From Erysipelotrichaceae bacterium (lineage in GTDB: Bacteria > Bacillota_I > Bacilli_A > RFN20 > CAG-826): a stretch of DNA of 64,000 nucleotides. The translations under genes were made by a program, and so were the position numbers. Shown one piece after another: positions 25,277 through 26,584 of the stretch; position 1 is the first letter of the stretch; every line of letters starts with the position of its first letter. The DNA lies in assembly GCA_015059185.1 (NCBI GenBank), contig SVAY01000003.1, positions 15,251 to 79,250 of the forward strand. Direction: 5' to 3'. The notes beneath the pieces were generated by a model, which worked only from the letters and a program-made list of their open reading frames with translations, made no database searches and was not told the DNA's origin.

Positions 25277-26584
25277 TTAATTAGCTTGGCGAATGACTAA
25301 ATCTTGAGAGCCTGTACCAACTGTAACTTCAGCTGCGGCGCCTTCAGCAGTAGAGCTAGTTTTAACTAAAACGTTATCTAAATCAACTTCAACAGAATAG
25401 GTATTGGCATTACGATAACCATAAATAGAAGGAAGATTGGTAGCATTTATGATATCAACATCTCTTAATGATAATGACATATCATGTGCATATGCAGTAC
25501 CTGCACTTCTATCACCAACAACAATTGCGGCAGTTGGTACTTCATTACCTGATCCCCAATTACTATCTAAATACTTTTGAGTTTCAAATGCACCAGTATA
25601 AGCAATGGTAGTATCTTCAACAACAGCATTACCACTTCTTACTAATAAAGCTTGTCTATCACCGACAATAGAACAATTATTAACATTCAATGAACCAGGA
25701 ACATTAATCATAAGAGTACAATCATCGTGATCAAAATTGTCAGGATAGCCTTGGTATCCAAATGAAGCAAATTCGGAATTATTTAAATTAATAACAACGC
25801 CATAGTTTTCAGGTCCACTTGCATTTGTTCCAACAGCATAAACACCTGCTCCAATGCGAGAGTTGTTGACATTAACTTCAGTTGCAGCTCCTCTAGGGTA
25901 AATTGCAGTACCGGTAGTTTGAATGTTAACATTATTTAGATTGAAAATACCAGCTCTATCAACAGAGAATAAAGATGTTGTTCCATATGGAATATTTACA
26001 GCTCGAATTCCACCGTTTAATCCGAGACTTTGTTGTAATGTGAATGTTTGCTCTTCCTTAATGTCAATGCCAGATGAACTATTATAAATTAAATGATAAC
26101 CGGCAAAATCCAATATCATGTCATCTCCAACTAAATTAAGCTGTTGTTCAACGGTAATATCAGATGCCATAACAACATAAGCTTCATCGATACTAAGAGC
26201 AGCTTGAAGTTCAGCGGCATCTTTGACTAAGAAGGTTAGTCTTGCATCTTTACCATCCTTGCCATCTTTACCTGGTTGGCCTTGTGCACCAGGTGCACCA
26301 TTTTGACCATTGGCACCAGCAGCACCGGTATCACCTTTATCACCCTTATCACCTTTAGGACCTTGGGCACCGGTATCACCTTTTTCACCTTTGTCACCCT
26401 TGTCACCTTTGATGGATGCTAACCATTCTTCATAGGTTTGAGTTCCTCCGTTAGCTTGATAGAGTTCATAAATTGCTCTAATGTCTTCATTAGCAGGACT
26501 GCTTTCGTTTTTTGCAGTACTACATGCTCCGAGGCCTAAAGCTAAAAGAGAGAGCATGCTTAATGTAAACAATTTCTTTTTCAT
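25277..26584 (-). CDS. Lipoprotein with a collagen-like Gly-X-Y triple-helix repeat region and a C-terminal beta-helix-like (pectate-lyase-fold-like) domain
   Basis: Signal peptide plus lipobox (LALGLGAC). There are 18 consecutive G-X-Y triplets (GDKGDKGEKGDTGAQGPKGDKGDKGDTGAAGANGQNGAPGAQGQPGKDGKDGKD), and the C-terminal half has repetitive N/G/V-rich beta-helix-type periodicity. Confidence 0.7.
   Translation of the reverse strand: MKKKLFTLSMLSLLALGLGACSTAKNESSPANEDIRAIYELYQANGGTQTYEEWLASIKGDKGDKGEKGDTGAQGPKGDKGDKGDTGAAGANGQNGAPGAQGQPGKDGKDGKDARLTFLVKDAAELQAALSIDEAYVVMASDITVEQQLNLVGDDMILDFAGYHLIYNSSSGIDIKEEQTFTLQQSLGLNGGIRAVNIPYGTTSLFSVDRAGIFNLNNVNIQTTGTAIYPRGAATEVNVNNSRIGAGVYAVGTNASGPENYGVVINLNNSEFASFGYQGYPDNFDHDDCTLMINVPGSLNVNNCSIVGDRQALLVRSGNAVVEDTTIAYTGAFETQKYLDSNWGSGNEVPTAAIVVGDRSAGTAYAHDMSLSLRDVDIINATNLPSIYGYRNANTYSVEVDLDNVLVKTSSTAEGAAAEVTVGTGSQDLVIRQAN
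26251..26413 (-). repeat. Collagen-like GXY coding repeat inside the lipoprotein gene.
   Basis: A locally GC-rich GGN-NNN-NNN periodic segment encodes the GDKGDKG...GKDGKD run. Confidence 0.7.

What the first reader, a model, noticed from the sequence alone, without database searches (positions are those of the whole stretch)
25277..26584. Collagen-like (18 x Gly-X-Y) beta-helix lipoprotein next to the TasA-like locus
Bacterial collagen-like triple-helix segments are uncommon outside streptococcal Scl proteins, Bacillus exosporium BclA and phage tail fibres. Here a lipobox-anchored protein carries a GDK/GEK/GPK-rich collagen stalk followed by a beta-helix-like head, the same stalk-and-head architecture as phage receptor-binding or BclA-like fibres. 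It lies directly adjacent to the beta-helix-bearing TasA-like genes.
Basis: seen in the sequence. Interest (0 to 1): 0.5.

Follow-up and report, generated by a model that had tools for sequence, protein, structure and literature searches.

The report
Collagen-stalked beta-helix surface lipoprotein
A gut-type Erysipelotrichaceae bacterium encodes a membrane-anchored protein with a short collagen-like stalk and a beta-helix head, one of a large unnamed family whose stalk length and head type change between close relatives; it is real and tidy, but it is a variation on known bacterial collagen-like surface proteins.

Summary

The head matches no Pfam family. A profile of it finds 1,854 cluster representatives. 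In these it is attached to lipoprotein, SipW/TasA-type, pilin-like, SLH and other cell-wall anchors. Collagen stalks accompany almost only the lipoprotein anchor.

Triplet number varies in whole triplets among near-identical relatives (4-8, 10-24, 19-42). A sister lineage has the same gene at the same IMPDH-adjacent position, but with an unrelated head from triplet 14 onward.

No phage genes lie in the window, and the head has no match in 50,697 phage genomes.

Best reading: a probably trimeric, lipid-anchored stalk-and-head surface fibre with an exchangeable binding head. Trimerisation, lipidation and ligand are untested.

The Scl, BclA and phage comparisons hold as analogy only. NCBI already labels the protein "collagen-like protein". 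Verdict: a new variant of a known kind, of moderate interest.

The parts
25277..26584 (-). Whole gene with stop codon: 435-aa collagen-like beta-helix lipoprotein. Identical to NCBI MBE6141481.1, 'MAG: collagen-like protein [Erysipelotrichaceae bacterium]'.
   Evidence: ORF list and translation; exact-sequence look-up.
26591..26598 (-). Shine-Dalgarno-like AAAGGGGA, 7 nt upstream of the ATG.
   Evidence: Read directly from the sequence.
26522..26584 (-). Residues 1-21: type II (lipoprotein) signal peptide with n-region MKKK, a hydrophobic core, and lipobox L-G-A-C. Cys21 would be the lipidated first residue of the mature protein.
   Evidence: Sequence pattern. The same lipobox type occurs in 26 of the 29 homologues that carry the pre-collagen motif. 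Lipidation itself is inferred.
26408..26497 (-). Residues 30-59: pre-collagen helix-loop-helix module (DIRAIYELYQANGGTQTYEEWLASIKG). A divergent form of a motif common in phage structural proteins. Candidate trimer-registration element.
   Evidence: AlphaFold2 predicts helices 30-44 and 51-59 at pLDDT 60-67. The motif directly precedes the GXY run in 28 of 29 motif-bearing homologues. PHROG tail-fibre profiles extend over residues 23-113. The canonical form occurs in 297 phage records. A role in trimerisation is inferred.
26246..26407 (-). Residues 60-113: 18 uninterrupted Gly-X-Y triplets. About 15 nm long if triple-helical. 19 of the 36 X/Y residues are charged, there are 6 KGD/KGE motifs, and only 3 Pro.
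   Evidence: Pfam Collagen 39.1 bits, above the 27.2 cutoff. Composition. Imperfect 9/18/27-nt tandem repeat in the DNA.
25280..26245 (-). Residues 114-435: right-handed parallel beta-helix head of an unnamed family. Motifs: LDxxG cap, GTNAS, NVPG, GDRQA..R.G, WGSGNEVP..VVG.
25095..26279 (-). Replaceable cassette: distal collagen triplets from about triplet 14, the head, the stop codon and the terminator. It has no DNA similarity to the sister lineage, although the flanks are 91.5% (5' side) and 94.8% (3' side) identical.
   Evidence: blastn of the window against L003-L005. Protein identity to P0002 ends near residue 101.
25169..25199 (-). Terminator-like hairpin followed by a T-run, about 80 nt after the stop codon.
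   Evidence: Consensus scan. Pattern match only.
26773..26805 (-). Terminator-like hairpin after the upstream TasA-like gene. It suggests the collagen gene is its own transcription unit.
   Evidence: Consensus scan. Pattern match only.

Best explanation
The gene encodes a cell-surface stalk-and-head fibre.

Proposed mechanism, step by step:
1. The protein is exported. Its signal peptide is cut at the lipobox and Cys21 is lipidated, tethering the N-terminus to the outer face of the cytoplasmic membrane (inferred from the sequence pattern).
2. Three chains associate. The helix-loop-helix module at residues 30-59 is proposed to set the register (inferred).
3. The 18 Gly-X-Y triplets wind into a hydroxyproline-free triple helix about 15 nm long, stabilised by charged residues (inferred).
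4. This rigid spacer projects the C-terminal right-handed beta-helix heads (fold shown by modelling) through or beyond the cell wall.
5. The heads bind a ligand, most likely a glycan or another surface polymer, so the protein acts as an adhesin or recognition tip (inferred).

The gene evolves in modules, and this part is shown directly:
- Stalk length changes by whole triplets between near-identical relatives.
- The distal stalk, head and terminator are exchanged as one cassette, with the 5' breakpoint inside the collagen repeats. This gives different heads on the same chassis at the same chromosomal site.
For: Anatomy.

Spacer logic. Among 150 diverse proteins that carry this head, 18 of the 44 lipobox-anchored ones have at least 5 GXY triplets. 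None of the 26 with SipW/TasA-type N-termini do, and none of the 5 pilin-like ones do. Only 2 of 63 with other signal peptides do. The collagen stalk therefore goes with the membrane tether, which is the anchor that needs a spacer.

Surface display. Partner domains of the head are all anchors or fibre modules: Collagen, camelysin/TasA (Peptidase_M73), N_methyl pilin motif, SLH, CWB2, choline-binding, Big_2.

Triple-helix constraint. Glycine is kept at every third position. Copy number differs only in whole triplets within clusters of at least 90% identity: 4-8, 10-24 and 19-42.

Cassette exchange. The sister lineage (L003-L005) is 91.5% identical over the 543 bases covering the promoter region and codons 1-101. 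It is then unrelated until 183 nt past the stop codon, and then 94.8% identical through IMPDH. The same N-terminal module plus collagen also carries other heads:
- the P0003 and P0027 types;
- Pfam Pectate_lyase_5, the 'putative pectate lyase-like adhesive domain', in P0004 and P0041;
- a head in L010 with no Pfam match and no similarity noted to the window's head.

Binding rather than catalysis. The invariant columns are G191, A255, S270, N294, R316, G318, G357 and Y365. They recur roughly one coil (22-25 residues) apart, as structural ladders do. No invariant acidic pair is present. The domain also occurs in 2-5 copies within some very large proteins.
Against: Trimerisation was not tested, because only monomer prediction was available. 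In that model the collagen segment has pLDDT below 50.

Eighteen triplets without hydroxyproline is short. From my own recollection of the Scl2 literature, segments of comparable length melt below 37 C unless held by flanking trimer domains. The stalk may therefore be only marginally stable.

Lipidation and surface exposure are inferred from sequence only. The ligand is unknown.
Confidence: 0.55

Rival explanations
1. The head is a surface-displayed polysaccharide-degrading enzyme (a lyase or glycoside hydrolase of the pectin-lyase-like superfamily). The collagen stalk holds it out from the membrane so it can act on dietary or host glycans or on matrix polymers.
Against: No Pfam or CAZyme-type family matches, even at E <= 0.1. 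There is no invariant pair of carboxylates, and no Lys/Arg plus calcium-site pattern. Adhesins (Vag8, pertactin, SRRP, PfbA) score as high as the enzymes. Tandem copies in giant proteins and fusion to TasA or pilin modules suit a binding module better.
Confidence: 0.2
2. The Gly-X-Y segment does not form a triple helix. The protein is a monomeric lipoprotein, and the charged, glycine-rich run is simply a flexible, extendable linker.
For: The run is short (18 triplets), has only 3 prolines and no hydroxyproline. No recognised trimerisation domain was found. Single-chain right-handed beta-helices are often monomeric, as in pectate lyases and autotransporter passengers. Some family members have as few as 4-5 triplets, which is too few for a stable helix.
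Against: A plain linker has no need to keep glycine strictly at every third residue, nor to change length only in units of three residues across three independent clusters. The KGD/KGE-rich composition matches known hydroxyproline-free bacterial collagens, which rely on charged residues (review PMC8968730). A conserved helical module sits directly before the run in 28 of 29 cases.
Confidence: 0.17
3. The gene is a remnant of a prophage tail fibre or receptor-binding protein, or a BclA-like spore-surface fibre, and not a vegetative-cell lipoprotein.
For: PHROG tail-fibre families match residues 23-134, best E = 3e-16. The canonical version of the pre-collagen motif occurs in 297 phage records. 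The stalk-and-head layout resembles tail fibres and BclA.
Against: The 64-kb window contains no phage structural, integrase or lysis genes. The context is chromosomal: NusA, RimP, IMPDH, a ClpB-like ATPase, phosphofructokinase. The head has no tblastn hit in 50,697 phage genomes and no hit in IMG/VR. The window's own motif variant has no phage hit. A lipobox is not a feature of virion proteins. The head is a beta-helix, not the C1q/TNF-like trimer of BclA.
Confidence: 0.05

Closest known systems
Streptococcal collagen-like adhesins Scl1/Scl2
   Same: A surface 'lollipop' built from a hydroxyproline-free, charge-rich collagen stalk of strain-variable triplet number and a variable globular head that mediates binding.
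   Different: Scl proteins have the head (V domain, a helical trimeriser) at the N-terminus and an LPXTG cell-wall anchor at the C-terminus. Here the polarity is reversed: an N-terminal lipid anchor and a C-terminal beta-helix head. NCBIfam Scl models score 46 and 40 bits against cutoffs of 400 and 325, and only over the collagen segment.
Bacillus BclA and Pasteuria ramosa collagen-like proteins (Pcl)
   Same: The order is the same: N-terminal anchor, collagen stalk of variable length, C-terminal globular head. Pasteuria CLP genes are reported to turn over rapidly, and one is reported to have a polymorphic C-terminal domain acting as an adhesin (10.1101/2023.07.14.549037 and PMC13233619, abstracts seen).
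   Different: The BclA head is a C1q/TNF-like jelly-roll trimer and its anchor is an exosporium-targeting peptide (from my own knowledge). Here the head is a right-handed beta-helix and the anchor is a lipobox. No spore context is evident.
Phage tailspikes and tail fibres with beta-helix receptor-binding or depolymerase domains
   Different: The gene has a lipobox and a chromosomal context. The head has no sequence relative in 50,697 phage genomes. There are no virion genes nearby.
Beta-helix adhesins: L. reuteri SRRP binding region, S. pneumoniae PfbA, Bordetella Vag8 and pertactin; Pfam PF20585 'putative pectate lyase-like adhesive domain'
   Different: Sequence identity is only 11-14%. The window's head does not match PF20585 or PF13229. 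Those adhesins use LPXTG or autotransporter anchoring and have no collagen stalk.
Burkholderia Bucl8 and Bucl3 (collagen-like proteins predicted to be lipoproteins)
   Same: They are a precedent for a lipobox and a collagen-like region in one bacterial protein (PMC4565658).
   Different: Bucl8 is a Gram-negative outer-membrane efflux (OprM-like) protein. The rest of its architecture and its cell envelope are unrelated.

Membership tests
Collagen triple-helix repeat proteins (Pfam PF01391) | An uninterrupted (Gly-X-Y)n run scoring above the Pfam gathering threshold. | tested here: met
   39.1 bits against a cutoff of 27.2; 18 uninterrupted triplets at residues 60-113.
Collagen triple-helix repeat proteins (Pfam PF01391) | Actual formation of a trimeric triple helix. 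| not testable with these tools
   Only monomer prediction was available, and the collagen segment has pLDDT below 50. Indirect support comes from length changes in whole triplets only.
Bacterial lipoproteins (Lgt/Lsp substrates) | An N-terminal signal peptide ending in a lipobox [LVI..][..][AGS]C within about 35 residues. | tested here: met
   MKKK, a hydrophobic core, then L-G-A-C with Cys21. Lipidation itself was not tested.
Scl1/Scl2 streptococcal collagen-like adhesins | An N-terminal V domain, a C-terminal LPXTG sortase anchor, and a score above the NCBIfam cutoff. | tested here: not met
   NF038330 scores 45.7 against 400 and NF038329 scores 39.6 against 325, both over the collagen segment only. 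The C-terminus ends ...DLVIRQAN, with no LPXTG.
BclA-like exosporium fibres | A C-terminal C1q/TNF-like jelly-roll trimer head. | tested here: not met
   The head is a right-handed parallel beta-helix.
Phage tail fibre / tailspike | Encoded within a phage or prophage structural module. | tested here: not met
   No phage genes among the window's ORFs. Among the five window proteins scanned against PHROGs, tail-family matches came only from this protein, and they cover its collagen and pre-collagen segment.
Phage tail fibre / tailspike | A receptor-binding head homologous to phage proteins. | tested here: not met
   tblastn of the head against 50,697 phage genomes gave no match at E <= 1e-3. IMG/VR gave none.
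Pectin-lyase-like right-handed beta-helix superfamily (fold level) | A single-chain right-handed parallel beta-helix. | tested here: met
Pectin-lyase-like right-handed beta-helix superfamily (enzymes) | Conserved catalytic residues of a lyase or hydrolase family, or a match to a CAZyme-type family model. | tested here: inconclusive
   No Pfam match. Invariant residues are G, A, S, N, R and Y at coil-like spacing, with no invariant acidic pair. I could not map them onto coordinates.
TasA/camelysin family (the neighbouring genes) | A SipW-type signal peptide (..GTTFALFTS..) and a camelysin-like domain. | tested here: not met
   This protein has a lipobox instead. The SipW-type peptide is found in the four upstream ORFs only. 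The same head is fused to SipW-type N-termini in 26 of 150 representatives from other organisms, and 8 of the 72 scanned match Peptidase_M73.

The most novel reading that the evidence does not exclude
The lipobox, helix-loop-helix motif and collagen segment form a portable chassis. Its repetitive collagen-coding DNA serves as the recombination site for swapping head cassettes between strains, which would be a cellular counterpart of phage tail-fibre mosaicism. The unnamed TNAS/WGSGN beta-helix would then be a general-purpose tip domain that Firmicutes mount on four different display systems: collagen-stalked lipoproteins, TasA-like fibres, type IV pilin-like proteins, and S-layer or cell-wall anchors. 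This would imply that TasA-like fibres and pili in gut anaerobes are tip-functionalised adhesins under diversifying selection.
Probability: 0.3. Interest if true: 0.6.

Novelty: new variant of a known kind. Interest (0 to 1): 0.4.

Why it matters
Collagen-like surface proteins are known adhesins in pathogens, spores and phages. Their role in commensal gut or rumen Firmicutes is essentially uncharted.

This case defines three things:
- a recurring chassis of lipid anchor, phage-like helical motif and collagen stalk;
- a large beta-helix head family (1,854 cluster representatives) with no Pfam match and no description in the papers I searched;
- direct evidence that stalk length and head identity vary between close relatives at a fixed chromosomal site.

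If the heads are ligand-binding, these loci are candidate determinants of strain-level niche or host specificity. The short, hydroxyproline-free, KGD/KGE-rich stalks could also interest people who engineer recombinant collagens. None of this overturns current understanding.

Tried and rejected
- Shared head with the neighbours. BLASTP and profile comparison of the head against the 753-aa, 631-aa and 2,250-aa neighbours found only the N-terminal cap motif (L..A...v.L..DI.l) in common, at hhalign probability 10-23%. The neighbours do not carry this head.
- The sister lineage's TasA-like 511-aa protein scored 38 bits (bias 22) against my family HMM. BLASTP shows no real similarity and the TNAS/WGSGN motifs are absent. 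I treat this as generic beta-helix repetitiveness.
- The word-indexed protein search with the head alone found only 3 proteins. The exhaustive profile search was needed.
- The genome-contig scan found only one distant relative: 31% identity, a lipoprotein without collagen in Ca. Heteroclostridium caecigallinarum.
- The metagenome scan with the N-terminal module gave two loci. L010 carries a further head type. The match in L009 runs off the end of the fetched DNA and could not be read.
- Neither form of the pre-collagen motif matches a solved structure. A troponin-C (EF-hand-like) alignment has E = 0.47 and is not significant.
- Literature searches found no description of this family or motif.

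Full report
**1. Observation**

The ORF at 25277..26584 lies on the minus strand and encodes 435 aa. A Shine-Dalgarno-like AAAGGGGA sits 7 nt upstream of the ATG.

Residues 1-21 (MKKKLFTLSMLSLLALGLGAC) are a signal peptide ending in a lipobox, with Cys21 at the +1 position. Residues 60-113 are exactly 18 uninterrupted Gly-X-Y triplets: GDK x4, GEK, GPK, GDT x2, GKD x3, GAQ x2, GAA, GAN, GQN, GAP and GQP. Pfam Collagen scores 39.1 bits against a gathering cutoff of 27.2. PDB sequence matches are to collagens over residues 56-116 only. At the DNA level the segment is an imperfect 9/18/27-nt tandem repeat.

**2. The head**

Residues 113-435 match no Pfam family. With a 7-sequence alignment, AlphaFold2 gives a confident model (pLDDT 81, pTM 0.86) made of stacked beta-coils. 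A full-length run agrees. It also predicts two helices, 30-44 and 51-59, just before the collagen run at pLDDT 60-67. The collagen segment itself is unmodelled, as expected for a single chain.

- autotransporter passengers Vag8 and pertactin;
- the adhesins SRRP and PfbA;
- alginate and pectate lyases;
- GH110 galactosidases;
- many phage tailspikes and depolymerases.

The fold is therefore settled, but fold alone does not assign a function.

**3. The head family**

A profile of the head searched exhaustively against 1.84 billion cluster representatives finds 1,854 proteins at E <= 0.001, of which 718 are below 1e-30. They are 300-1,900 aa long, and some contain 2-5 copies of the domain.

I classified the N-termini of the top 150:

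| N-terminus | Proteins | With >= 5 GXY triplets |
|---|---|---|
| Lipobox | 44 | 18 |
| SipW/TasA-type signal peptide | 26 | 0 |
| Pilin-like | 5 | 0 |
| Other signal peptide | 63 | 2 |

The remaining 12 were fragments or had no recognisable signal.

A Pfam scan of 72 members shows that the partner domains are all anchors or fibre modules: Collagen in 13, camelysin/TasA Peptidase_M73 in 8, N_methyl in 3, SLH in 3, plus CWB2, choline-binding and Big_2. The head is thus a surface-display module. The collagen stalk goes specifically with the membrane-lipid anchor, which is the anchor that needs a spacer to clear the wall.

In the 72-sequence alignment the invariant columns are G191, A255, S270, N294, R316, G318, G357 and Y365. 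T253, N254, Q311, W343 and G346 are at least 90% conserved. These positions recur roughly one beta-helix coil apart and include no invariant acidic pair. I read this as structural ladders rather than a catalytic centre, but I could not check it on coordinates.

**4. The chassis**

Among the top 120 full-length hits, 29 carry the motif [YFW]xxW[LIVM]xx[LIVM]xG. In 28 of them it abuts a GXY run, and 26 of them also have a lipobox.

PHROG tail-fibre profiles cover residues 23-134, best E = 3e-16. The canonical form of the motif, GKSAYEIAVENGFEGTEEEWLASL, occupies the same position in paralogues such as P0047 and P0130. It occurs at 60-92% identity in 297 phage records from many hosts, for example in gp29 of Microbacterium phage Jayden. 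The window's divergent variant has no direct phage hit. Neither form matches a solved structure or any paper in the library.

**5. Variation**

Inside clusters of at least 90% identity, length differences are whole triplets:
- 4-8 triplets in the P0020 cluster, which has the same head family;
- 10-24 in the P0130 cluster, which has the same head family;
- 19-42 in the P0027 cluster, which has another head.

The window is 100% identical to an ENA contig (L006) and 99.2% identical to a JGI contig (L001), and both carry the same protein.

A sister lineage (L003-L005) has 91-95% nucleotide identity in the flanking genes. It has a 513-aa lipoprotein at the same position next to IMPDH. DNA identity of 91.5% runs from the upstream intergenic region through codon 101, which lies in triplet 14. 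It then vanishes until 183 nt past the stop codon, and resumes at 94.8%.

The same chassis also carries other heads:
- P0003- and P0027-type heads;
- the Pfam Pectate_lyase_5 'adhesive domain' in P0004 and P0041;
- a head in L010 with no Pfam match and no similarity noted to the window's head.

**6. Context**

NusA is identical to that of an NCBI 'MAG: Erysipelotrichaceae bacterium'. The protein itself is MBE6141481.1, annotated 'collagen-like protein'.

The window is ordinary chromosome, with NusA, RimP, IMPDH, a ClpB-like ATPase, phosphofructokinase and toxin-antitoxin pairs, and it has no phage genes. The head has no match in 50,697 phage genomes or in IMG/VR.

Upstream lie four ORFs with SipW-type signal peptides and a SipW-like peptidase. 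However, the collagen gene is bracketed by terminator-like hairpins. The two nearest TasA-like genes are missing in the sister lineage. The neighbours' C-terminal domains are not members of this head family. The region is best described as a variable island of surface-protein genes, not a conserved operon.

**7. Interpretation**

The best-supported model is a lipid-anchored, probably trimeric stalk-and-head fibre with a stalk of about 15 nm (54 residues x 0.286 nm). The head is an exchangeable ligand-binding beta-helix.

Shown here: the domain anatomy, the fold, the association between anchor type and stalk, copy-number variation in whole triplets, and the cassette replacement.

Inferred: lipidation, trimerisation, nucleation by the helical motif, and binding rather than catalysis.

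Rivals are a displayed glycan-degrading enzyme (0.2), a non-helical flexible linker (0.17), and a phage or spore remnant (0.05).

**8. Comparison and novelty**

The protein works like Scl, BclA and Pasteuria CLPs and like tail fibres, but it fails their membership tests. It has no LPXTG motif or V domain, no C1q-like head, no phage context, and no phage homologue of the head.

Bacterial collagen-like proteins are numerous: 2,554 in Pfam by 2015 (PMC4565658), and thousands of hits.

I rate this a new variant of a known kind, of moderate interest. The most useful by-products are the delineation of a large head family with no Pfam match and of the head-swapping chassis.

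Noticed in passing
window 26914..29363 (-): The adjacent TasA-like gene is split. Its SipW-type signal peptide lies in a separate 58-aa ORF (29187..29363) that ends 11 nt before the 753-aa ORF (26914..29175). A 1-nt frame change near GCGGATTTAAAATTG (about 29215) would read through (...FKIDNAWELGNVSMTKNS...). The split is identical in L006. In L001, which is 99.2% identical, the calls are 104 aa and 583 aa, so the disruption differs. It could be a pseudogene, an assembly error, or slippage at the T3A4 tract.
   Followed up: partly
window 26813..33858 (-); L003 1..2600: The TasA-like locus (ORFs of 198, 631, 303 and 58+753 aa with SipW-type signal peptides, plus a SipW-like peptidase at 33028..33858) is itself mosaic. 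The sister lineage has a single 511-aa protein. Its N-terminus is 79% identical in DNA to the 631-aa gene, and its C-terminus resembles the C-terminus of the 753-aa protein. The 303-aa gene and most of the 753-aa gene are absent there.
   Followed up: partly
window 22746..23461 (+); L001 8139..9139; L003 6199..7198: The toxin-antitoxin cassette between IMPDH and the PTS EIIC gene differs between close relatives. The window and L006 have a RelB/PIN_3 pair on one strand. L001 and L003 have MazE/PIN_3 in the opposite orientation plus a lone RelB. DNA identity breaks exactly there, between window 23475 and 23040.
   Followed up: no
window 10799..17551 (-) and 9358..10815 (-): A 2,250-aa ORF has no Pfam or PHROG match at all. 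It is followed by a lipobox-bearing class-3 lipase-like protein (485 aa). A second Lipase_3 protein lies at 4773..6311. A homologous giant ORF of at least 2,239 aa is present in L006.
   Followed up: no
phage records, e.g. L007 1685..2839 (Microbacterium phage Jayden gp29): The 24-residue motif SAYEIAVENGFEGTE(E/Q)EWLASL occurs at 60-92% identity in 297 phage records from Escherichia, Pseudomonas, Staphylococcus, Mycobacterium and other hosts. The proteins are annotated inconsistently as tail assembly, tail sheath or hypothetical. The motif has no Pfam family, no solved structure, and no mention in the searched literature.
   Followed up: partly
window 26408..26497 (-), residues 30-59: The pre-collagen helix-loop-helix aligns weakly with an EF-hand of troponin C (DIRAIYELYQANGGTQTYEEWL against ELDAIIEEVDEDGSGTIDFEEFL). 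E = 0.47, which is not significant, and the canonical calcium-binding Asp residues are absent.
   Followed up: no
proteins P0169, P0201, P0257, P0263, P0269: The same beta-helix head is fused directly to type IV pilin-like N-termini (..KGFTLVELLVVIAIL..; Pfam N_methyl in 3 of the 72 scanned). These look like pilins with a bulky adhesin-like head.
   Followed up: no
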